64,000 bases of DNA from Escherichia coli. GTDB lineage: Bacteria; Pseudomonadota; Gammaproteobacteria; Enterobacterales; Enterobacteriaceae. The notes beneath the pieces were generated by a model. That model had not been told where the DNA came from and did no database searches. It worked only from the letters and a program-made list of their open reading frames with translations. This document shows, piece after piece, positions 29,706-41,402 of the stretch (its first letter is position 1; the number at the start of each line of letters is the position of its first letter). A program made the position numbers and the translations under genes. The DNA lies in NCBI RefSeq assembly GCF_001677475.2, contig NZ_CP015229.1; one strand, 5' to 3'.

Positions 29706-31055
29706 ATGCTGGATAAAATTGTTATTGCCAACCGCGGCGAGATTGCATTGCGTATTCTTCGTGCCTGTAAAGAACTGGGCATCAAGACTGTCGCTGTGCA
29801 CTCCAGCGCGGATCGCGATCTAAAACACGTATTACTGGCAGATGAAACGGTCTGTATCGGCCCTGCTCCGTCAGTAAAAAGTTATCTGAACATCCCGGCA
29901 ATCATCAGCGCCGCTGAAATCACCGGCGCAGTAGCAATCCATCCGGGTTACGGCTTCCTCTCCGAGAACGCCAACTTTGCCGAGCAGGTTGAACGCTCCG
30001 GCTTTATCTTCATCGGCCCGAAAGCAGAAACCATTCGCCTGATGGGCGACAAAGTATCCGCAATCGCGGCGATGAAAAAAGCGGGCGTCCCTTGCGTACC
30101 GGGTTCTGACGGCCCGCTGGGCGACGATATGGATAAAAACCGTGCCATTGCTAAACGCATTGGTTATCCGGTGATTATCAAAGCCTCCGGCGGCGGCGGT
30201 GGTCGCGGTATGCGCGTAGTGCGCGGCGACGCTGAACTGGCACAATCCATCTCCATGACCCGTGCGGAAGCGAAAGCTGCTTTCAGCAACGATATGGTTT
30301 ACATGGAGAAATACCTGGAAAATCCTCGCCACGTCGAGATTCAGGTACTGGCTGACGGTCAGGGCAACGCTATCTATCTGGCGGAACGTGACTGCTCCAT
30401 GCAGCGCCGCCACCAGAAAGTGGTCGAAGAAGCACCAGCACCGGGCATTACCCCGGAACTGCGTCGCTACATCGGCGAACGTTGCGCTAAAGCGTGTGTT
30501 GATATCGGCTATCGCGGTGCAGGTACTTTCGAGTTCCTGTTCGAAAACGGCGAGTTCTATTTCATCGAAATGAACACCCGTATTCAGGTAGAACACCCGG
30601 TTACAGAAATGATCACCGGCGTTGACCTGATCAAAGAACAGCTGCGTATCGCTGCCGGTCAACCGCTGTCGATCAAGCAAGAAGAAGTTCACGTTCGCGG
30701 CCATGCGGTGGAATGTCGTATCAACGCCGAAGATCCGAACACCTTCCTGCCAAGTCCGGGCAAAATCACCCGTTTCCACGCACCTGGCGGTTTTGGCGTG
30801 CGTTGGGAGTCTCATATCTACGCGGGCTACACCGTACCGCCGTACTATGACTCAATGATCGGTAAGCTGATTTGCTACGGTGAAAACCGTGATGTGGCGA
30901 TTGCCCGCATGAAGAATGCGCTGCAGGAGCTGATCATCGACGGTATCAAAACCAACGTTGATCTGCAGATCCGCATCATGAATGACGAGAACTTCCAGCA
31001 TGGTGGCACTAACATCCACTATCTGGAGAAAAAACTCGGTCTTCAGGAAAAATAA
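29706..31055 (+). CDS. accC: Biotin carboxylase
   Basis: ORF trimmed to ATG 29706 giving 449 aa ([25 protein letters not shown]...). Confidence 0.97.
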
Positions 31056-31103
31056 TTTGTGACGCGCGGTGTTTTCATCGCGCTTAGCAAAGAACGTAAT
31101 CAA

Positions 31104-31136
31104 CGCCGGGCCTGTTAACGCTGCCCGGCGTTTTTA
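31104..31136 (+). terminator. Intrinsic terminator of the accBC operon
   Basis: cgccgggc-ctgttaacgct-gcccggcg followed by ttttta. Confidence 0.7.
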
Positions 31137-31146
31137 TTGCCGTTAG

Positions 31147-32193
31147 CTAACGGTAGCCTGCAATTTCCGCTTTCAACGCGCTCATTTCAGCATCGCCATC
31201 AACAATTCCCAGCTCAAAGCAGTATTTCTTTGTTTCCCCTGGCTCTATAAAGGGCAGACGCCCCTGCGCTCGTTCTTTATCACGACCGTCAGGAAAACTA
31301 TTGCTGACCTCCAGCCCCATAACATATTCACCCGCGCCTAAATTTTTCCACTGGATAAAGTTGGGTAGCTGCATGGTGTCGAATTTCTCGTAAATTCCCC
31401 ACCCCAGTTCAGCGTTCACCAGCGCAATTTTACTCATCCCCTGACTGTCGCTATTCAAGGTGAGATAGTAAACCTGCTCGTCAAAACCGGGCTGTGGGGT
31501 ACAAATCTCCAGATGACTGGTTAACCCTTCCGCCGCATGCGGAGTTCGTGGCGTTACGCTTTTAGCCGACAGCAAGATTTCTGCCTGTGGCGATAATAAA
31601 GGCCAGCCGTAATTAAAGTGATAAAGAATTTGCAGCGGCTGGCGGGTGAAACCATGATTAGTCACCTCGTCTTCAATGCGCAGCACATTTTCGCCATAAC
31701 GGCAGCGAATGGTCCTTTCCAGCGTCAGATTTTCACCGAACAATCGCGTTTCCCGTACTTTGCCATTGATGACAAATTCAATGCCGTCGTCGGTCCGTTC
31801 TGTGCGATACCCCACCTCTTCTGCTGGAGTCGCAGCCAAACGCCCATGTAACCCCAGCGTTTCTCCTTCATCCTCACAGGGCGTGCCAATGTAGCTAAGT
31901 CCGCAGGTAGTCAGTAACCCCGCGTAAAAGCTACGTAAAAACCCGTTGCCCTGAGACTCGAAAAAAGCGGGGGCGACAATGCCGTTGGGGGTGATAAAAG
32001 AGAGCGCAGTGTCCTTGTAGCTGGCCCATGCAATATCCAGCGCGCGATCTTTTACCACCGTAAATGCCAGTCCCGCACCAGTACGGACATCAAACGCTTC
32101 TGTACCCTTTGCTCTGCCACTACGTAACTCATAGTGTTTAATTCCGGCAACCTGCGAGAGATCGCCAATCCACGACCAAATTTCGTTTTTCAT
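31147..32193 (-). CDS. Island gene: conserved protein of unknown function, galactose-mutarotase-like / possibly DUF4432 family
   Basis: 348-aa ORF; start overlaps the stop of the upstream kinase gene by 4 nt (ATGA); no TM or signal peptide. Family assignment is from pattern recognition only and is low confidence. Confidence 0.7.
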   Translation of the reverse strand: MKNEIWSWIGDLSQVAGIKHYELRSGRAKGTEAFDVRTGAGLAFTVVKDRALDIAWASYKDTALSFITPNGIVAPAFFESQGNGFLRSFYAGLLTTCGLSYIGTPCEDEGETLGLHGRLAATPAEEVGYRTERTDDGIEFVINGKVRETRLFGENLTLERTIRCRYGENVLRIEDEVTNHGFTRQPLQILYHFNYGWPLLSPQAEILLSAKSVTPRTPHAAEGLTSHLEICTPQPGFDEQVYYLTLNSDSQGMSKIALVNAELGWGIYEKFDTMQLPNFIQWKNLGAGEYVMGLEVSNSFPDGRDKERAQGRLPFIEPGETKKYCFELGIVDGDAEMSALKAEIAGYR

Positions 32194-33152
32194 TGTGCTG
32201 CTTCCCGAATGGACATGTCATGGCGCTGGATGAACGTTTCGATTTCCGCAAGGCGAGACGTTCCCTCCATTGGGCCACGTCGGGTAACAGCCAGTGCACC
32301 GCAGGCGTTGGCATATTGTAATGCCCGATGGGCGTCAAACCCTAGCTGGCGGCAGGCAATCCACGCGCCACCAAAGCAGTCTCCCGCACCGGTCGGGTCA
32401 ACTTCTTCCACCGGATAGCTCTCAACATGAAACTGCTCATTCGCGGAGTAGTAACTGGCTCCTTGATTGCCGCGCTTCACAATCACCTCTTTAACACCTT
32501 CTTCAAGAAAACCAGCGATTGCACGCTCCGGCGTCGAATGTGGCGACAAGAGCAACACTTCGCCCTCGCTGGGCATATAGATATCCGTTAACTCAAGAAC
32601 AAAGTGGAGGGCGTCACGCATTTCTGGAATATCGAGCATCTCTTTTCGAATATTAGGGTCGAAAGAAATAACACCACCATTTGCTTTAACGATGGTTACC
32701 GCTTTTTTTACTGCGTCTACCATATGAAACGAAAACAGGGATGAACCCATAATATGAAAATGGGTACAGTCCTTCAGAATATTTTCATCAACATGCTGCG
32801 CCGATAATTTACCGCAAGCGGCATTCTTGATATTAAAAATAAAATCGCGATCGCCAGAGTTATGATAAGTAACAAAGGCGCTCCCGGTAGCTTCCAGAGG
32901 TAAGACTGAAATCCCCCTGATATCCACACCGTCAGCAGCCAGACGATGTATATTAATATCACCAAAGCCATCATTCCCCACACAGCTAATGATGCCGCAC
33001 GGAACGCCAAGACGTGTCACCTGGTCGATAAAAATAGCGGGCGCACCACTGGGATAAGGGCCGTTCCAGATACCTGGTTGATCAAATGGCTGGCCGATTT
33101 TACTCGCCATAATTTCAACCAAAATTTCTCCAATTGTGAAGACCTTACTCAT
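32190..33152 (-). CDS. Island gene: pfkB/ribokinase-family carbohydrate kinase (kinase 1)
   Basis: 320-aa ORF with pfkB signature DPTGAGDCFGGAW near the C-terminus and an N-terminal Gly-rich substrate lid. Confidence 0.85.
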   Translation of the reverse strand: MSKVFTIGEILVEIMASKIGQPFDQPGIWNGPYPSGAPAIFIDQVTRLGVPCGIISCVGNDGFGDINIHRLAADGVDIRGISVLPLEATGSAFVTYHNSGDRDFIFNIKNAACGKLSAQHVDENILKDCTHFHIMGSSLFSFHMVDAVKKAVTIVKANGGVISFDPNIRKEMLDIPEMRDALHFVLELTDIYMPSEGEVLLLSPHSTPERAIAGFLEEGVKEVIVKRGNQGASYYSANEQFHVESYPVEEVDPTGAGDCFGGAWIACRQLGFDAHRALQYANACGALAVTRRGPMEGTSRLAEIETFIQRHDMSIREAAQ

Positions 33153-33173
33153 ATGATTAATTCCTTGAAATGA

Positions 33174-34163
33174 TTAGCTGCGTTTTCTTTTATTTCTTAC
33201 GTCAAAATAAACGGCTACAAGAATGACTAATCCTTTAACCACCATCTGGTAAAAATAGGGAACATTCATTAAGTTCATGCCATTATTAATAACGCCGATG
33301 GTTAATGCGCCGATCACCGTCCCCACCACGGTTCCATAGCCGCCGTTCAGGCTGGTGCCTCCCAGTACAGCCGCGGCAATAGCATCCAGTTCGTAGCTCA
33401 ACGCGGAATTCGGTTGCCCGGAATAGAGGCGTGAGGCGAGGATCATCCCGCTGATACCTGCCAGCACGGCTGTAATCATAAAGACTTTAATTTTCAAGCG
33501 GGTGACATTTATCCCTGAATAAACTGCCGCTTCTTTATTACCACCAGTGATATAAATTTTTCGTCCAAAGGTTGTTTTAGTAAGAATGAAGTGGTTAATC
33601 AGCAATAAGATGATTAATATCCAGATAGGAATAGGTATATAGAGAAATTCTCCATTCCCCAGTGCCAGAAAGGCATCATCTTTAATCATGATGGGCATAC
33701 CATCGGTCACTATATAAGCGATACCACGGAAGATCCCCATTGTAGCAACGGTGACAATAAACGAAGGGATACCCGCTATAGCCGTCAAGCCACCATTTAT
33801 CATCCCCAGAGCCAGGGCTGCAATAATGGATAATGGGACCAATAAAATAAATGGAATTCCCCATGAAGCCCCAAGCGCAGCAAATGTGCCAATCAATGCA
33901 ATGGTTGAACCGACCGATAAATCAATATCGCCAAGCAAAAGTACATAAGTCATTCCATAGGCGGTAATTGCAATTATCGAAACCTGAAGAATAATATTAG
34001 TAATGTTATTGGCAGTAAAAAAACTGTCATTAATAAAACTGAACAGAATGATTAACACCACCATTCCACTGAGGATACCGCCATATTGCCTGAAGACTTT
34101 TTTAAAATTATTTGCAATGGGAATTTCCGAAGGTTTCGGACTGGCAAGAGTTTTCTCTGTCAT
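33174..34163 (-). CDS. Island gene: sugar ABC transporter permease (RbsC-like, CUT2 family)
   Basis: 329-aa highly hydrophobic ORF; abuts the ATPase gene (34163/34164). Confidence 0.85.
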   Translation of the reverse strand: MTEKTLASPKPSEIPIANNFKKVFRQYGGILSGMVVLIILFSFINDSFFTANNITNIILQVSIIAITAYGMTYVLLLGDIDLSVGSTIALIGTFAALGASWGIPFILLVPLSIIAALALGMINGGLTAIAGIPSFIVTVATMGIFRGIAYIVTDGMPIMIKDDAFLALGNGEFLYIPIPIWILIILLLINHFILTKTTFGRKIYITGGNKEAAVYSGINVTRLKIKVFMITAVLAGISGMILASRLYSGQPNSALSYELDAIAAAVLGGTSLNGGYGTVVGTVIGALTIGVINNGMNLMNVPYFYQMVVKGLVILVAVYFDVRNKRKRS

Positions 34164-35663
34164 TTAACGTACTCCTGTTGCAGCGGTCATTACCTGTGTC
34201 TGCGTTAAATTTTCACATGAATAAATATCGGCAATCGTTTTATTACGCATTACCACCAGACGATCGCTAAGTGCCATGACTTCTGGCAGTTCAGAGGACA
34301 CCAGAATAATTGCTGTCCCTGCCGCAGCCAGTTGACGTATCACGTTATAGATTTCAAATTTTGCGCCGACATCTACTCCGCGCGTTGGCTCATCGAGCAA
34401 TAAAATACGCGGAGTTTTCTCCAGCCACTTCGATAACACGATTTTCTGTTGATTACCGCCGCTCAGCGCTCCCACTGCCTGATGTACAGAACTCACTTTA
34501 GTGTTCATTCTGGCAATAGATTGCAGCGTCTTCGCCTCTTCTTGTCGGTGATTGATGAGTCCCATCCGCGAAGCGTTATATTGAAACGCCACATGGTGCG
34601 TGTTCATATTGACGTCGTGCATCAGCACTAACCCTTCTTCCTTGCGGTTTTCGGTCACAAAAGCAATGCCATGATCAATAGCCTGTTTGGGATTAGCGAT
34701 CCTGACTTCCTTACCATCAATCAACACAGTCCCGTGATACGAAACGAGGCCAAATAGCGCCTTCATCACATCGGAACGCCCGGCCCCCACCAGGCCAAAA
34801 AATCCGAGGACTTCCCCCGGACGCACAGCGAAACTGACCTCTTTAAAAAGCGAAGGATGGGAAAGGTTTTTTACTTCCAGTTTTGCAGGAACATTTTCAT
34901 CCGGCTTTTCCCCAAGACGTGCTGGCCAAATATTTTTCATTTCCCGACCAACCATTTGGGCAATCAAATGCTGGATATCACTGTTTTTCTTTTCATGCGT
35001 AGCGATATACTCACCGTCGCGGATCACCGAAATATCATCTGAAATCCGCATAATTTCATCCATGCGATGAGAGATATAAATAACCGCACAGCCTCGCTGC
35101 TTTAATTTTTCAATAATGTTAAACAGAATCTCTGCTTCATTATCACTTAGCGAAGATGTCGGTTCATCCATAATCACGACATCCGCTGCATAGCTTAAGG
35201 CTTTGGCAATTTCTACCAGTTGCCTATGTGCCATCGACATATCGCCGACCATTTCCAGCGGATCCAGAGGGATGCCCAGTTCCGCGAGGAGATTCTGGCA
35301 ATCTGCGAGCATTTTTTTATCATTAATAATGCCAAAACGTCGCAGTTCATTATTGGCATAAATATTTTCCGCCACGGTCATATTATTACTCAGGCTCAGT
35401 TCCTGAAAAATAATCGCAATCCCTAACTGGCGAGAATGCTGCGGATTATTAATGGTAATGGTTTCACCACGTAGTGTTATCGTTCCCTGGGTTGGCGGAT
35501 AAACACCGGCGAGTATTTTCATTAATGTCGATTTACCGGCACCATTCTCGCCTAATAAAGTATGCACCCGCCCTTTACGTAAAGAGAGTGTAATATTTTT
35601 TAATGCCTGAACATGACCAAATGTCTTCGCAATATGCGAAACATCAAGAATAACATCCGTCAT
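34164..35663 (-). CDS. Island gene: sugar ABC transporter ATP-binding protein with duplicated ABC domains (RbsA/MglA-like)
   Basis: 499-aa ORF; Walker A GENGAGKST in the N-terminal half and a second, degenerate nucleotide-binding domain. Confidence 0.85.
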   Translation of the reverse strand: MTDVILDVSHIAKTFGHVQALKNITLSLRKGRVHTLLGENGAGKSTLMKILAGVYPPTQGTITLRGETITINNPQHSRQLGIAIIFQELSLSNNMTVAENIYANNELRRFGIINDKKMLADCQNLLAELGIPLDPLEMVGDMSMAHRQLVEIAKALSYAADVVIMDEPTSSLSDNEAEILFNIIEKLKQRGCAVIYISHRMDEIMRISDDISVIRDGEYIATHEKKNSDIQHLIAQMVGREMKNIWPARLGEKPDENVPAKLEVKNLSHPSLFKEVSFAVRPGEVLGFFGLVGAGRSDVMKALFGLVSYHGTVLIDGKEVRIANPKQAIDHGIAFVTENRKEEGLVLMHDVNMNTHHVAFQYNASRMGLINHRQEEAKTLQSIARMNTKVSSVHQAVGALSGGNQQKIVLSKWLEKTPRILLLDEPTRGVDVGAKFEIYNVIRQLAAAGTAIILVSSELPEVMALSDRLVVMRNKTIADIYSCENLTQTQVMTAATGVR

Positions 35664-35723
35664 AATGACCTCGGTGTCACAACAAAACGTCGATAACGTT
35701 TTGTTGTGAAATGAAGATGTTTA

Positions 35724-36620
35724 TTATTTACCTGTATAAACGCCGGGTTGTACCGGGATCATTTTTTCTACCGGTTTACCATTGAGGTGATCAACAGCGG
35801 CATCAATGGCTTTAGCACCCATTTGATCGGGATATTGCCGAATCACGGCCGCAAACGTTTTTTCACTGTCAACGGCATCACGCGCTTCTTTCATGCCGTC
35901 AAAACCAATGATTTTGATGTTGTCGTTATGCGCAGATTTCGCTGCGATAACCGCTGCCAACGCCGCATCATCACCAAAGCCAAACAGACCATTCAGGTTG
36001 GCGTTGGCCTGCATAATGTTTTGCGCAGTCGTTAACGCTTCAGCCCGCGTTATACCTGGCTGTTCAGCAACAATTCTAATATTCGGTGTCTCGCTTAACC
36101 CTTTCTTAAAACCATCAACGCGCGCAACCACCGATTGTAGTGCCGGATAAGAAATAATGGCTACAGTACCTTTGCCATTCAAAAGTTTGCCCATTAACTT
36201 GCCTGCTTCAACGCCTCCCGCGTAGTTATCGGTCGCAACATGCGATACGACCGGAACGCCTTCCGCAGCGACGTCGACGGTGATAACGGGAATACCGGCC
36301 TTATCGGCTTTAATTATCGCCGCCTGGACGCCTTTCGAATCAACCGGAGAGATAATAATGGCATCCACTTTTTTAGTAATAAAATCCTCAACATCAGAAA
36401 GTTGTTTGTTTAAATCCTGATTGGCAATAGAGACACTTAAATTGACATTGTCTTTTTTTGCCTCTTCTTTCATGGCATTCGCAAGATCAATATAGAAAGG
36501 ATGTTGCTGTGTTAATAATGACGCACCAATTTTATACTCTTTTGCCAATGAACTTTGCGAGAATAATGCCAGGCTCACCAACATAGCTGAACCAAGTAAT
36601 TTAATATTTTTCATAAACAA
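35724..36620 (-). CDS. Island gene: periplasmic sugar-binding protein (type I PBP, RbsB-like) with signal peptide
   Basis: 298-aa ORF; N-terminal signal peptide ending ...SSLA-KEYKIG; start may be ATG two codons downstream. Confidence 0.8.
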   Translation of the reverse strand: MFMKNIKLLGSAMLVSLALFSQSSLAKEYKIGASLLTQQHPFYIDLANAMKEEAKKDNVNLSVSIANQDLNKQLSDVEDFITKKVDAIIISPVDSKGVQAAIIKADKAGIPVITVDVAAEGVPVVSHVATDNYAGGVEAGKLMGKLLNGKGTVAIISYPALQSVVARVDGFKKGLSETPNIRIVAEQPGITRAEALTTAQNIMQANANLNGLFGFGDDAALAAVIAAKSAHNDNIKIIGFDGMKEARDAVDSEKTFAAVIRQYPDQMGAKAIDAAVDHLNGKPVEKMIPVQPGVYTGK

Positions 36621-36649
36621 TCCTCATTGTTTTTGTAGGTTACAACGTA

Positions 36650-37828
<1,179 letters not shown>

Positions 37829-38659
37829 ATGAAGAGTGTTAACGTGCCGAGAAAATCGTCTAACCTACTGAAACGCAGATTAAAAATTGCAGAAATTGTT
37901 GCCGCCCAGGGTGAAATCAAAGTTGATGACTTATCTGCGCAACTTGGTGTCTCTGGCGTGACGATCCGCGGCGATCTCAGTTATCTGGAGCAACAGGGAT
38001 ATTTAAAGCGATCATTTGGCGGTGCTATTGCGACACCACTCTCCTCTGAACCAGAAGCGATACAACCGATCGCGCCATTGTCTCTGGCACAACAAATGGA
38101 AATAGCACGACATTGCGCACGGTTAATTCGGGATCGTGACACGCTATTTCTTGGACATGGGACAATCTGCCGTAAGATCATTCCCTTGCTCAGCGAAGTG
38201 AAAAAACTGCGTCTGATCACCAACGATCCCGAACATGCGCTGCTGGCAAATCAGTTTATTGATGGCGAAATAATACTGGCTGGCAGTGAAATGCTGCGCC
38301 CCGACACCGCACTGGCCGGAAAACCGCTTGAACAGGCACTTCAGCATTTCACCATTACACATAGCATTCTGGAAATCAGCCATCTGGATGCTGATGGTAC
38401 TTTAAATATCAACGTTCCCAGACTTGCCGCTGCCTGGCAGCTCTGTTTCGATCATGCCCAAAATAAGACAGTTATCGTTGCCGCCGACCCTGCGCCATCA
38501 ACGGCTGCTATCGGGCATTTGCATCAGGCAGAAAATGTGATCGTCAGCCGCAGCATTAACGAACAATATCAGCAACAATTGCAGTCGGCTGATTTCGTTA
38601 TCCTTTATACCAGTAATGAGTGCTTTACCTGGTCCAATCGCGAAAGGCTTCAGGAATGA
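37829..38659 (+). CDS. Island gene: DeoR-family transcriptional regulator
   Basis: 276-aa ORF; N-terminal HTH (LSAQLGVSGVTIRGDLSYLEQQGYLKR) and C-terminal sugar-phosphate sensor domain; exact start uncertain. Confidence 0.8.
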   Translation: MKSVNVPRKSSNLLKRRLKIAEIVAAQGEIKVDDLSAQLGVSGVTIRGDLSYLEQQGYLKRSFGGAIATPLSSEPEAIQPIAPLSLAQQMEIARHCARLIRDRDTLFLGHGTICRKIIPLLSEVKKLRLITNDPEHALLANQFIDGEIILAGSEMLRPDTALAGKPLEQALQHFTITHSILEISHLDADGTLNINVPRLAAAWQLCFDHAQNKTVIVAADPAPSTAAIGHLHQAENVIVSRSINEQYQQQLQSADFVILYTSNECFTWSNRERLQE

Positions 38660-38669
38660 GAGGGGTTTT

Positions 38670-39626
38670 GTGACAATAACTATCTGCGCTATGGGCGAAT
38701 TGCTGGCCGAGTTTTTGTCCCGCAACCCACATCAAAAATTCACTCAGCCTGGAGAGTTTATCGGGCCATTTCCCAGCGGTGCGCCAGCAATTTTTGCTGC
38801 TCAGGTGGCAAAACTGTCCCATCGGGCCATCTTCTTTGGATGTGTTGGTAATGATGATTTTGGCCGACTCATTATAGAGCGTCTCCGTCATGAAGGTGTC
38901 ATTACCGATGGGATTCGCGTTATGAACAATGCCGTCACAGGTACGGCGTTCGTGAGTTATCAAAATCCCCAGCAGCGGGATTTCGTCTTTAATATCCCTA
39001 ACAGCGCCTGCGGTTTGTTTACTGCTGAGCACATTGATAAGGATCTGCTAAAACAGTGTAACCATCTCCATATTGTGGGCTCATCGTTGTTCTCATTTCG
39101 CATGATCGATGTCATGCGTAAAGCAATAACGACGATCAAATCGGCTGGCGGCACCGTTTCTTTCGATCCCAATATTCGCAAAGAGATGCTGAGCATTCCT
39201 GAAATGGCGCAGGCCCTCGATTATTTGATTGAATATACGGATATTTTTATCCCCAGCGAAAGCGAACTCCCTTTCTTCGCGCGTCACAAAAATCTGCCAG
39301 AAGAACAGATTGTTAGCGATCTTCTCCACGGCGGCGTAAAACATGTGGCGATAAAACGCGCCCAGCGTGGGGCCAGCTATTACAAGCTTAAAAACGGTAC
39401 ATTACACGCCCAGCATGTTACAGGCCACGATATCGAAATTATCGATCCAACGGGTGCAGGCGACTGCTTTGGCGCAACGTTTATCACTCTTTTCTTATCC
39501 GGTTTCCCGGCACATAAGGCACTGCAATATGCAAATGCCAGCGGCGCGCTCGCCGTAATGCGGCAAGGTCCGATGGAAGGGATATCCTCACTGGCTGACA
39601 TTGAAGACTTTTTGCAGCAGCACTGA
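38670..39626 (+). CDS. Island gene: second pfkB-family carbohydrate kinase (kinase 2), paralogous to kinase 1
   Basis: ORF track starts at 38616 and overlaps the regulator; trimmed to in-frame GTG 38670 with GAGGGG RBS, which aligns its N-terminus with kinase 1. Signature DPTGAGDCFGATF. Confidence 0.8.
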   Translation: MTITICAMGELLAEFLSRNPHQKFTQPGEFIGPFPSGAPAIFAAQVAKLSHRAIFFGCVGNDDFGRLIIERLRHEGVITDGIRVMNNAVTGTAFVSYQNPQQRDFVFNIPNSACGLFTAEHIDKDLLKQCNHLHIVGSSLFSFRMIDVMRKAITTIKSAGGTVSFDPNIRKEMLSIPEMAQALDYLIEYTDIFIPSESELPFFARHKNLPEEQIVSDLLHGGVKHVAIKRAQRGASYYKLKNGTLHAQHVTGHDIEIIDPTGAGDCFGATFITLFLSGFPAHKALQYANASGALAVMRQGPMEGISSLADIEDFLQQH

Positions 39627-39718
39627 ACGGCAATTTTCTGTCAGATTATTTTCCCTGCCTGAAGACTTGCCGTAGAATTGCCCGTTTCTCGTATCCCCCC
39701 ATGAGGAGGACCCCTTCC

Positions 39719-39961
39719 GTGGACACTCGTTTTGTTCAGGCCCATAAAGAGGCGCGCTGGGCGCTGGGGCTGACCCTTTTGTATCTGGCGGTTTGGTTAG
39801 TAGCCGCTTACTTACCTGGCGTTGCCCCCGGTTTTACCGGCTTTCCGCGCTGGTTTGAGATGGCCTGCATCCTGACGCCGCTGCTGTTTATTGGACTGTG
39901 CTGGGCGATGGTGAAATTTATCTATCGCGATATCCCACTGGAGGATGACGATGCAGCTTGA
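39719..39961 (+). CDS. yhdT: Small inner-membrane protein YhdT (DUF997)
   Basis: Start set at GTG 39719 downstream of GAGGAGGA; 80 aa; overlaps the panF start. Confidence 0.85.
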   Translation: MDTRFVQAHKEARWALGLTLLYLAVWLVAAYLPGVAPGFTGFPRWFEMACILTPLLFIGLCWAMVKFIYRDIPLEDDDAA

Positions 39962-41402
39962 AGTAATTCTACCGCTGGTCGCCTATCTGGTGGTGGTGTT
40001 CGGTATCTCTGTTTATGCGATGCGTAAACGGAGCACCGGCACCTTCCTTAATGAGTATTTCCTCGGCAGCCGCTCTATGGGCGGTATTGTGCTGGCGATG
40101 ACGCTCACCGCGACCTATATCAGTGCCAGTTCGTTTATCGGCGGGCCTGGAGCTGCTTATAAATACGGCCTGGGTTGGGTATTACTGGCGATGATTCAGC
40201 TTCCTGCAGTCTGGCTTTCACTCGGTATTCTCGGCAAGAAGTTCGCGATTCTTGCGCGCCGCTACAATGCAGTGACGCTGAACGATATGCTATTTGCCCG
40301 CTACCAGAGTCGTCTTCTGGTGTGGCTGGCGAGTTTGAGTTTGCTGGTTGCGTTCGTTGGTGCGATGACCGTGCAGTTTATCGGCGGTGCGCGCCTGCTG
40401 GAAACCGCGGCGGGTATTCCTTATGAAACCGGGCTGCTGATTTTTGGTATCAGCATTGCGTTATATACCGCCTTTGGTGGCTTTCGCGCCAGCGTGCTGA
40501 ACGACACCATGCAAGGGCTGGTAATGCTGATTGGCACCGTTGTGCTGCTTATTGGCGTGGTACATGCCGCTGGCGGCTTAAGCAACGCAGTACAGACCTT
40601 GCAAACTATCGATCCGCAACTGGTTACGCCACAAGGCGCTGACGATATTCTGTCGCCTGCCTTTATGACATCGTTCTGGGTACTGGTGTGTTTTGGCGTG
40701 ATTGGCCTGCCGCATACTGCGGTGCGCTGTATCTCTTATAAAGACAGCAAAGCCGTACACCGGGGGATCATCATCGGTACGATTGTGGTCGCAATTCTGA
40801 TGTTCGGTATGCACCTGGCCGGAGCGTTAGGTCGGGCGGTGATCCCCGATCTCACCGTACCGGACCTGGTGATCCCAACGTTAATGGTAAAAGTGCTGCC
40901 ACCGTTTGCTGCCGGGATCTTCCTGGCTGCACCGATGGCCGCGATCATGTCGACGATCAATGCCCAGTTGCTGCAAAGTTCCGCTACGATCATTAAAGAT
41001 CTCTATCTGAATATCCGTCCGGATCAAATGCAAAACGAGACGCGTCTGAAGCGGATGTCGGCGGTAATTACGTTAGTTCTCGGTGCGTTGCTGCTGCTTG
41101 CCGCCTGGAAGCCGCCAGAAATGATCATCTGGCTGAATTTGCTGGCCTTCGGTGGGCTGGAAGCCGTTTTCCTGTGGCCGCTGGTGCTGGGTCTTTACTG
41201 GGAACGCGCCAACGCCAAAGGCGCGCTAAGTGCGATGATCGTTGGCGGCGTACTGTATGCCGTACTCGCGACACTGAATATTCAGTACCTGGGCTTCCAC
41301 CCTATCGTGCCCTCGTTACTACTAAGTTTGCTGGCTTTCCTGGTCGGAAACCGTTTCGGTACATCCGTCCCGCAAGCTACCGTTTTTACTACTGATAAAT
41401 AA
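39951..41402 (+). CDS. panF: Sodium/pantothenate symporter
   Basis: ORF trimmed to ATG 39951 giving 483 aa ([26 protein letters not shown]...). Confidence 0.95.

What the first reader, a model, noticed from the sequence alone, without database searches (positions are those of the whole stretch)
31147..32193. Translationally coupled 348-aa protein of unknown function at the end of the island operon
The last operon gene overlaps the kinase stop by 4 nt (ATGA), implying stoichiometric co-expression. I could only place it loosely in the galactose-mutarotase-like / DUF4432-type group from recall. It has no signal peptide or TM segments. Such proteins in sugar operons may be anomerases or epimerases that prepare the substrate for the kinase, but the function is open.
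Basis: inference. Interest (0 to 1): 0.5.

Follow-up and report, generated by a model that had tools for sequence, protein, structure and literature searches.

The report
tagE, putative tagatose mutarotase gene
This is tagE, the last gene of the published E. coli D-tagatose island; it has a sugar ring-opening (mutarotase) fold, probably prepares tagatose for the kinase encoded just upstream, and has never been tested biochemically.

Summary
A 348-aa ORF lies at 31147-32193 on the minus strand. Its ATG overlaps the stop codon of the upstream PfkB kinase gene (ATGA at 32190-32193). It has no signal peptide or membrane segment, and it is the last gene before a hairpin shared with convergent accC.

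The island between accC and yhdT/panF is the published E. coli Nissle D-tagatose cluster (tagYABCDE plus tagRK). This gene is tagE, annotated "aldose 1-epimerase family protein". Both papers on the cluster say its function is untested.

Homologues sit beside enzymes and transporters that handle free sugars, never beside PTS genes. The nearest clade sits beside PfkB kinases, and one member also beside a D-lyxose/mannose isomerase.

Best reading (confidence about 0.55): TagE is a cytoplasmic D-tagatose mutarotase. It opens the dominant pyranose ring so that the 6-kinase TagD receives the furanose form, the role RbsD plays for ribose. D-tagatose is D-lyxo-hexulose, which fits that clade.

The gene is already known and of low to moderate interest. 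The specific hypothesis is testable.

The parts
31147..32193 (-). tagE: 348-aa cytoplasmic DUF4432 protein with a galactose-mutarotase-like fold. This is the finding.
32190..32193 (-). ATGA overlap: the tagE start codon overlaps the tagD stop codon.
   Evidence: Sequence read directly. The same junction is present in L007, L008 and L010.
32201..32206 (-). GGGAAG Shine-Dalgarno-like motif, 7 nt upstream of the tagE ATG and inside the end of tagD.
   Evidence: GGAAG is conserved at the same position in L007, L008 and L010.
31102..31132 (.). G+C-rich hairpin between convergent accC and tagE. On the + strand it is followed by a T-run (accC terminator). On the - strand it lies 15 nt after the tagE stop and has a weak U-tract.
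   Evidence: fold -24.3 kcal/mol, z -2.56.
32190..33152 (-). tagD: PfkB-family D-tagatose kinase, the gene coupled to tagE.
   Evidence: NCBIfam NF049991 tagatose kinase, 414 bits, cut-off 420. Deleting the EcN orthologue abolishes growth on tagatose (PMC9720028).
33174..34163 (-). tagC: ABC transporter permease (ribose/arabinose type).
   Evidence: annotation in IAI39.
34164..35663 (-). tagB: sugar ABC transporter ATPase with two ATP-binding domains.
35724..36614 (-). tagA: periplasmic RbsB-like sugar-binding protein.
   Evidence: RbsB model, E 1.6e-47.
36650..37486 (-). tagY: class II tagatose-bisphosphate aldolase. In this window it carries an 18-bp in-frame deletion (near 36996) that removes VQRTQI.
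   Evidence: GatY-type, 500 bits.
37487..37828 (.). Divergent promoter and operator region between tagY and tagR.
   Evidence: The intergenic region is 342 bp here and 341 bp in EcN (PMC9720028). The promoter-like matches are no more frequent than in shuffled sequence.
37829..38659 (+). tagR: DeoR/GlpR-family regulator.
   Evidence: named in PMC12226905.
38691..39626 (+). tagK: second PfkB kinase, role unknown. The longest ORF starts at 38616; the annotated start in IAI39 corresponds to 38691.

Best explanation
The ORF is tagE, the last gene of the tagYABCDE operon of the E. coli D-tagatose island. It encodes a soluble cytoplasmic enzyme with the galactose-mutarotase fold (Pfam DUF4432).

The most likely function is a D-tagatose mutarotase. 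By acid/base catalysis (candidate residues His116, His192, Glu295) it opens the hemiketal ring of the imported sugar. This speeds interconversion of the dominant pyranose forms with the minor furanose and open-chain forms.

This matters for the next step. In a 2-ketohexopyranose, O6 is the ring oxygen, so the kinase TagD, which makes tagatose 6-phosphate, can only use the furanose or open-chain form. TagE would therefore do for tagatose what RbsD pyranase does for ribose ahead of ribokinase, and what GalM does ahead of GalK. PfkA and the TagY aldolase then complete the route to triose phosphates.

What is shown: the gene, its coupling to tagD, the fold, the conserved residues, purifying selection, induction by tagatose (published), and the association of homologues with free-sugar enzymes. 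What is inferred: the catalytic activity, the substrate, and the pyranose-to-furanose direction. A mutarotase only accelerates a spontaneous reaction, so the gene is expected to be helpful rather than essential.
For: 1. Identity of the locus. The gene order and position (accC | tagE-D-C-B-A-Y | tagR-K | yhdT-panF) match, and the island is 98.3% identical to that of E. coli IAI39. This is the cluster shown to confer growth on D-tagatose. All six operon genes are induced more than 40-fold, and growth needs tagD and pfkA (PMC9720028). The gene is named tagE in PMC12226905.
3. Conserved residues. R50, H116, N179, H192, N194, Y290 and E295 are identical in all 89 homologues, including 3TY1 at 27% identity; E239 is conserved in 85 of 89. 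The motifs LHG, LYHFNxG and GLEP resemble the GalM/YphB/YihR motifs that carry the catalytic His, His and Glu, and occur in the same order.
4. Free-sugar context. Of 64 cleanly called non-enterobacterial loci, 44 carry recognisable sugar-catabolism or transport genes within 6 kb. 22 have a PfkB or FGGY kinase, 18 an aldose-ketose isomerase, 23 a sugar dehydrogenase, and 10 GH38/GH92 mannosidases. Some sit between an ABC transporter and an SDR plus lactonase pair, a route with no phosphorylated intermediates. None of the 83 loci has PTS components.
5. Conserved kinase-DUF4432 module. A Clostridiales genome (L033) carries an ABC transporter, a class II aldolase, a PfkA-type kinase, a tagatose-kinase-like PfkB and then DUF4432, in that order.
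6. Nearest relatives. With 84% bootstrap support, TagE groups with proteins next to PfkB kinases. One of these is also next to a Lyx_isomer gene and an ABC transporter. By nomenclature D-tagatose is D-lyxo-hex-2-ulose, so its pyranose ring has the same hydroxyl configuration as D-lyxose and D-mannose (established stereochemistry).
7. Precedent. In E. coli K-12, galK and galM (kinase then mutarotase) also overlap.
8. Selection. dN/dS is 0.05-0.07 against orthologues in other genera.
Against: No biochemical or genetic test of tagE exists.

The protein does not match the classical Aldose_epim Pfam family. HMM-HMM alignment to GalM profiles failed. The equivalence of H116/H192/E295 with the GalM catalytic residues therefore rests on motif resemblance and fold only. 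I had no coordinates to superpose.

No GalM-fold enzyme is known to act on a ketose or to convert pyranose to furanose, and a literature search for ketose or fructose mutarotases found nothing. Fructokinases manage without a dedicated mutarotase.

The contexts that contain isomerases fit an aldose (mannose or lyxose) mutarotase equally well.

The alpha- and beta-proteobacterial tagatose clusters lack this gene. Truncated tagE variants are common in public E. coli data. The function is therefore at most accessory.
Confidence: 0.55

Rival explanations
1. TagE is a sugar-phosphate mutarotase, like YeaD or yeast YMR099c (hexose-6-phosphate mutarotase). It would interconvert the alpha and beta furanose anomers of tagatose 6-phosphate (or the 1,6-bisphosphate), so that PfkA or the TagY aldolase receives the right anomer.
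Against: Homologues occur in routes that have no phosphorylated sugar, such as ABC transporter then SDR plus lactonase, or next to free-sugar isomerases and glycosidases. No PTS genes, which would deliver a phosphorylated sugar, are linked in any of 83 loci. R87, R160 and R304 are not conserved in 3TY1. The Bacteroidota clusters would produce fructose 6-phosphate, which I would not expect to need a dedicated anomerase (my own reasoning, untested).
Confidence: 0.15
2. TagE is a mutarotase, but for another sugar. The natural substrate of the island, or at least of TagE, would be a different lyxo-configured or related sugar (such as D-lyxose, D-mannose or another ketohexose), with D-tagatose only a laboratory substrate.
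For: One of the closest relatives sits beside a D-lyxose/mannose isomerase, and Bacteroidota homologues sit beside that isomerase and mannosidases. EcN grows slowly, over 120 h, and best at 40 mM tagatose.
Against: The island has no isomerase, so an aldose could not enter the kinase-aldolase route. The operon is induced 40- to more than 1000-fold by D-tagatose. TagD matches the tagatose kinase model and TagY the tagatose-bisphosphate aldolase models.
Confidence: 0.12
3. TagE changes configuration rather than ring form. It would be a true epimerase or isomerase acting on tagatose or tagatose 6-phosphate, for example a non-homologous replacement of the tagatose-6-P 4-epimerase found at the same position in the Sinorhizobium cluster.
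For: It occupies the position of the 4-epimerase gene in the rhizobial cluster (PMC9720028). The pfkA requirement does not exclude a route through fructose 6-phosphate.
Against: It shows no similarity to the GatZ/KbaZ-type epimerases: Pfam finds only DUF4432. To my knowledge, GalM-fold enzymes catalyse only anomeric-centre chemistry. The island carries its own tagatose-bisphosphate aldolase, which makes a bypass unnecessary.
Confidence: 0.06
4. TagE is not an enzyme of the pathway. It would act as a partner or chaperone of the GatY-like aldolase TagY, replacing GatZ, or as a sugar-binding regulatory protein.
For: GatY and KbaY need GatZ and KbaZ for full activity, and the island has no GatZ homologue. 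None of the 11 DUF4432 loci with a GatY-like aldolase has a GatZ homologue nearby.
Against: Only about one locus in eight has such an aldolase. The Klebsiella spallanzanii cluster keeps tagD-tagE but has no tagY. The invariant His, His and Glu residues argue for catalysis.
Confidence: 0.05

Closest known systems
tagE (ECOLIN_RS18670 / HW372_RS02470) of the E. coli Nissle 1917 D-tagatose cluster (Ha et al. 2022, PMC9720028; PMC12226905)
   Same: Same gene at the same locus (accC/yhdT), in the same operon order and with the same length. The window protein is 99% identical to the main public E. coli cluster P0001, and the island is 98.3-98.4% identical at the nucleotide level.
   Different: Nothing essential differs for tagE: there are 5 substitutions relative to IAI39, none at invariant positions. 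The neighbouring tagY in this window has a unique 18-bp deletion. Note the name clash: 'tagE' in Sinorhizobium is an unrelated tagatose-6-P 4-epimerase.
PDB 3TY1, KPN_04629 of Klebsiella pneumoniae ('hypothetical aldose 1-epimerase', structural genomics), the only solved DUF4432 structure
   Different: Only 27% identical. That subfamily is 402 aa long and one source names it 'exported protein'. In the one Serratia genome examined it stands alone, upstream of five genes whose Pfam domains fit a Liv-type amino-acid ABC transporter, rather than in a sugar operon. Its function is also unknown.
Galactose mutarotase GalM (aldose 1-epimerase, Pfam Aldose_epim; L. lactis 1L7J, E. coli GalM)
   Different: There is no detectable sequence-profile similarity. 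GalM acts on aldopyranoses (alpha/beta). TagE would have to act on a ketose and, on my reading, also deliver the furanose form.
RbsD D-ribose pyranase and the FucU family
   Same: The proposed physiological role is the same. After ABC import of the pyranose, these enzymes supply the furanose tautomer to a PfkB-family kinase. This is knowledge of the family, not tested here.
   Different: The fold and family are unrelated: Pfam finds no RbsD_FucU match in TagE. The comparison is a functional analogy only.
Hexose-6-phosphate mutarotases (E. coli/Salmonella YeaD, yeast YMR099c)
   Different: These act on phosphorylated sugars. The genomic contexts of DUF4432 point to free sugars.

Membership tests
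Pfam DUF4432 (PF14486) | Significant full-length match to the family HMM | tested here: met
   E 2.9e-104, 348.5 bits, residues 29-329 on model positions 2-303 of 304.
E. coli tag (D-tagatose) cluster, gene tagE | Located between accC and yhdT, last gene of the aldolase-ABC-kinase operon, near-identical sequence | tested here: met
   Gene order. The island is present in 1419 of 5426 complete E. coli genomes, with best identity 98.4%. Described in PMC9720028 and PMC12226905.
Galactose mutarotase-like superfamily (fold level) | Mutarotase-type beta-sandwich fold | tested here: met
Galactose mutarotase-like superfamily (fold level) | Catalytic His/His/Glu equivalent to L. lactis GalM H96/H170/E304 | tested here: inconclusive
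   H116, H192 and E295 are invariant in 89 sequences and lie in GalM-like motifs. Profile-profile alignment to GalM failed (probability below 1%), and no coordinates were available for superposition.
Aldose 1-epimerase family proper (Pfam Aldose_epim PF01263) | Match to the Aldose_epim HMM | tested here: not met
   Only DUF4432 was reported, even at E <= 10. No NCBIfam model matched.
Aldose 1-epimerase family proper (Pfam Aldose_epim PF01263) | Mutarotase activity on a sugar | not testable with these tools
   This needs NMR or polarimetric assays. Both papers on the cluster state that the function is untested.
RbsD/FucU pyranase-mutarotase family | RbsD_FucU domain | tested here: not met
   No such Pfam hit, and the fold is a GalM-type sandwich. 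This is a functional analogy, not membership.
Tagatose-6-phosphate 4-epimerase (rhizobial TagE, GatZ/KbaZ-like) | Homology to the GatZ/KbaZ family | tested here: not met
   No Pfam match other than DUF4432. Ha et al. also note that the sequences are highly divergent.
Hexose-6-phosphate mutarotase (YeaD/YMR099c) | Phosphate-binding site and activity on sugar 6-phosphates | not tested

The most novel reading that the evidence does not exclude
The TagE clade of DUF4432 would be the first GalM-fold 'ketohexose pyranase'. On this reading the enzyme opens D-tagatopyranose, whose ring is lyxo-configured like D-lyxose and D-mannose, and delivers the furanose that a 6-kinase requires. It would be a functional analogue of RbsD that arose independently, related to mutarotases that serve lyxose/mannose isomerase pathways. 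That would give a first function to a family of more than 3000 sequence clusters at 50% identity.
Probability: 0.35. Interest if true: 0.45.

Novelty: already known. Interest (0 to 1): 0.28.

Why it matters
The tag island is a hallmark of E. coli phylogroup B2, which includes ExPEC, AIEC and the probiotic Nissle strain. It determines whether these gut strains can use the sweetener D-tagatose (PMC9720028).

tagE is the only operon gene without an assigned step. DUF4432 is a large family with no characterised member: 3182 clusters at 50% identity match tagE at E <= 0.001.

Showing that TagE is a tagatose mutarotase or pyranase would complete the pathway. It would explain why the gene is coupled to the kinase gene, and it could help engineering of tagatose-inducible or tagatose-consuming strains. 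It would also extend the chemistry known for the mutarotase fold to ketoses.

The expected phenotype is mild, and the general idea ("putative aldose 1-epimerase") is already in the annotation and the literature.

Tried and rejected
1. Residue-level mapping onto GalM by sequence failed. I ran hhalign of the DUF4432 alignment against E. coli GalM and YeaD alone, against four E. coli paralogues, and against a GalM profile built from five PDB sequences. All gave probability below 1%. The only aligned stretch (TagE 182-197 to GalM 275-290) is not trustworthy.
2. A homologue search with E. coli GalM returned only homologues of at least 76% identity, which were useless for a deep profile.
3. A profile search of the PDB with the DUF4432 alignment reached only 3TY1.
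4. NCBIfam has no model for TagE.
5. The context of the 3TY1-type subfamily is uninformative: a stand-alone gene upstream of a Liv-type amino-acid ABC transporter in Serratia.
6. I tested whether the Lyx_isomer-PfkB-DUF4432 cluster (L092) exists in E. coli. It does not; only a weak match to tagE itself was found.
7. Literature searches for DUF4432 function, tagatose mutarotase, pyranase or ketose mutarotase found no characterisation. One search was badly specified and wasted.
8. I found no citable tautomer percentages for free tagatose in the held library. The figures I use are from memory.
9. Rfam found nothing in 30800-38000.
10. Promoter-like and terminator-like matches in the operon are no more frequent than in shuffled sequence.
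11. I considered and rejected the idea that the ORF is decaying in this genome. All eight island genes are intact, with pN/pS of 0-0.22 against IAI39.

Full report
**Observation.** The ORF at 31147-32193 is real. It lies on the minus strand and encodes 348 aa from an ATG.
- The + strand reads TCAT at 32190-32193, so the ATG overlaps the TGA of the upstream ORF 32190-33152 by four bases.
- A GGGAAG motif sits 7 nt upstream of the ATG. GGAAG and the ATGA junction recur in a divergent E. coli allele, in Superficieibacter and in Enterobacter.
- Hydropathy shows no membrane segment or signal peptide (maximum 0.96 over 19 residues).
- A 10-bp G+C-rich hairpin (31102-31132) starts 15 nt after the TAG stop. 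It is shared with convergent accC, so this is the last gene of its operon.
- Rfam finds nothing in the region.

**What the island is.** The window has E. coli-type synteny: mreBCD, csrD, acuI, accBC, then the island, then panF, prmA, dusB. The island reads as follows on the minus strand:
- a class II tagatose-bisphosphate aldolase,
- an RbsB-like binding protein,
- an ABC ATPase and a permease,
- a PfkB kinase scoring 414 bits on the NCBIfam tagatose kinase model (cut-off 420),
- the ORF under study.

A DeoR regulator and a second PfkB kinase lie on the plus strand.

The same island, at up to 98.4% identity, is present in 1419 of 5426 complete E. coli genomes. There the ORF is annotated "aldose 1-epimerase family protein".

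This is the cluster that Ha et al. (2022, PMC9720028) showed to confer growth on D-tagatose in E. coli Nissle 1917. The six operon genes are induced more than 40-fold. Deleting the kinase or the whole operon abolishes growth, and pfkA is required. A 2025 paper names the genes tagY, A, B, C, D, E and tagR, K (PMC12226905). Both papers state that the function of the putative epimerase was not tested.

**The protein.**
- Pfam gives DUF4432 at E 2.9e-104 and nothing else. The classical Aldose_epim family does not match, and NCBIfam has no model.
- The only solved relative by sequence is 3TY1, an uncharacterised structural-genomics protein from Klebsiella.
- An AlphaFold model built on 34 homologues has pLDDT 94.6.
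- In 89 homologues, including 3TY1 at 27% identity, R50, H116, N179, H192, N194, Y290 and E295 never vary. E239 is conserved in 85 of 89.
- The motifs LHG, LYHFNxG and GLEP resemble those that carry the catalytic His, His and Glu of GalM, YphB and YihR, in the same order.
- I could not confirm this equivalence formally.
- The gene is under strong purifying selection, with dN/dS 0.05-0.07 against other genera. It is intact here, with five substitutions relative to IAI39, none at invariant sites.

**Context of homologues.** The family is large: 3182 clusters at 50% identity have E <= 0.001. I fetched 80 loci from species-representative genomes and several metagenomic contigs. I classified neighbours with a panel of queries, clustering, NCBIfam and Pfam.
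- The commonest neighbour family is a PfkB sugar kinase, in 18 of 83 loci.
- Next come ribose-type ABC transporters, FGGY kinases, SDR and other sugar dehydrogenases, class II aldolases, GH38/GH92 mannosidases, D-lyxose/mannose isomerases (long and short forms) and fucose-isomerase-like proteins.
- Of 64 cleanly called non-enterobacterial loci, 44 have such genes within 6 kb.
- All of these enzymes act on unphosphorylated sugars. In some loci the gene lies between an ABC transporter and an SDR plus lactonase pair, a route with no phosphate at all.
- No PTS component and no GatZ homologue occurs in any locus.
- A Clostridiales genome has a complete analogue of the E. coli pathway, including its own PfkA-type kinase. 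There the tagatose-kinase-like gene is again followed directly by DUF4432.
- Klebsiella spallanzanii keeps tagD-tagE but lacks the aldolase.

**Nearest relatives.** In a bootstrapped neighbour-joining tree, enterobacterial TagE groups at 84% support with three proteins that each sit next to a PfkB kinase.
- One of these loci also has a mannitol-dehydrogenase-family gene.
- Another also has a Lyx_isomer gene and an ABC transporter.

Deeper branches are unresolved.

**Mechanism proposed.** Three pieces of established chemistry connect these observations.
- In water D-tagatose is mostly pyranose. From memory, roughly 70-80% is alpha-pyranose, about 15% beta-pyranose and under 10% furanose. I found no citable figure in the held library.
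- In a 2-ketohexopyranose O6 is the ring oxygen, so a kinase that makes the 6-phosphate can use only the furanose or open-chain form.
- D-tagatose is D-lyxo-hex-2-ulose. Its pyranose ring carries the same hydroxyl configuration as D-lyxopyranose and D-mannopyranose, the substrates implied by the isomerase-linked relatives.

The most economical reading is therefore that TagE binds imported D-tagatopyranose and catalyses ring opening, which accelerates supply of the phosphorylatable tautomer to TagD. This is the job RbsD does for ribokinase after RbsB-dependent import of ribopyranose, and it parallels GalM ahead of GalK. In K-12 galK and galM also overlap.

The activity, the substrate and the direction are inferred. 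Only the gene, fold, conservation, coupling and contexts are shown. I put this at about 0.55.

**Rivals.**
- A sugar-phosphate anomerase acting on tagatose 6-phosphate (0.15). This fits the fold and the conserved arginines but not the phosphate-free contexts.
- A mutarotase whose true substrate is another sugar (0.12). This is disfavoured because the island has no isomerase and is strongly induced by tagatose.
- A true epimerase or isomerase (0.06).
- A GatZ-like aldolase partner or a regulator (0.05). This is weakened by loci that have DUF4432 but no aldolase.

**Novelty and value.** The gene, its cluster and its tentative annotation are already published, so the finding itself is known. What remains open is the biochemical function of TagE and of the whole DUF4432 family. 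The ketose pyranose-opening hypothesis is specific and cheap to test. The likely phenotype is mild: truncated variants circulate in E. coli, and the proteobacterial tagatose clusters outside the Enterobacteriaceae lack the gene. Interest is low to moderate.

Noticed in passing
window 36650-37486 (deletion near 36996): The aldolase gene tagY has an in-frame 18-bp deletion in this window. It removes VQRTQI (residues 165-170 of the 284-aa protein), just before the conserved [12 protein letters not shown] strand. All 1411 complete E. coli genomes that carry this segment have the 18 bp. TagY also has 6 amino-acid substitutions relative to IAI39. The aldolase may be impaired in this strain, or this could be an assembly error.
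   Followed up: yes
L007 (E. coli E69, CP089930.1) versus window 31000-40000: The same island occurs in E. coli as a second, deeply diverged allele: 90.1% nucleotide identity over 9 kb, with tagE dS about 0.48 and dN/dS 0.07. This suggests an old polymorphism or independent acquisitions.
   Followed up: partly
window 39951-41402 (panF) versus 29706-31055 (accC): Against E. coli IAI39, synonymous divergence is 0.175 in panF, to the right of the island, but 0.038 in accC, to the left. The flanks have different histories, which points to a recombination mosaic at the island border.
   Followed up: no
L087 3332-3338 (E. coli K-12 galK/galM): galK and galM overlap by 7 nt in K-12. This is a second kinase-then-mutarotase gene pair with overlapping reading frames.
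   Followed up: partly
L033 1346-9152 (Clostridiales MAG, JAJUJH010000033.1): This cluster looks like a self-contained tagatose pathway: an ABC transporter, a ROK regulator, a class II aldolase, a PfkA-type 6-phosphofructokinase, a 189-aa protein with no Pfam or NCBIfam match, a tagatose-kinase-like PfkB (279 bits) and DUF4432. It supplies the PfkA step that the E. coli island borrows from glycolysis.
   Followed up: partly
L060 8541-9104, L081 8560-9102, L068 2364-2906, L092 432-977, L094 4139-4681: Short (180-187 aa) cupin proteins with a weak D-lyxose isomerase (PF07385) match recur next to DUF4432, often with a PfkB kinase and sometimes a class II aldolase. They look like an uncharacterised isomerase subfamily.
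   Followed up: partly
L091 8001-9209 (Serratia) and proteins P0391-P0510: The subfamily of the solved structure 3TY1 is 402 aa long and one source names it 'exported protein'. In the one Serratia genome examined it is a stand-alone gene upstream of five genes with Liv-type amino-acid ABC transporter domains. It may be a periplasmic DUF4432 with a different role.
   Followed up: partly
proteins P0011, P0012, P0019, P0017: Public data hold many shortened tagE products: 292 aa with 290 member sequences and 213 aa with 127 members. There is also one 493-aa PfkB-DUF4432 fusion at 97% identity, perhaps from loss of the overlapping stop codon. tagE may be dispensable in some lineages.
   Followed up: no
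window 38616-39626: The longest ORF for the second kinase, tagK, starts at 38616 and overlaps the end of tagR by 44 nt. The RefSeq start in IAI39 corresponds to 38691. TagK scores 345 bits on the tagatose kinase model, and its role is unknown.
   Followed up: no
L009 (Klebsiella spallanzanii, NZ_CABGGS010000010.1): The Klebsiella spallanzanii version of the cluster keeps the regulator, the transporter, tagD and tagE, but has no tagY aldolase gene.
   Followed up: partly
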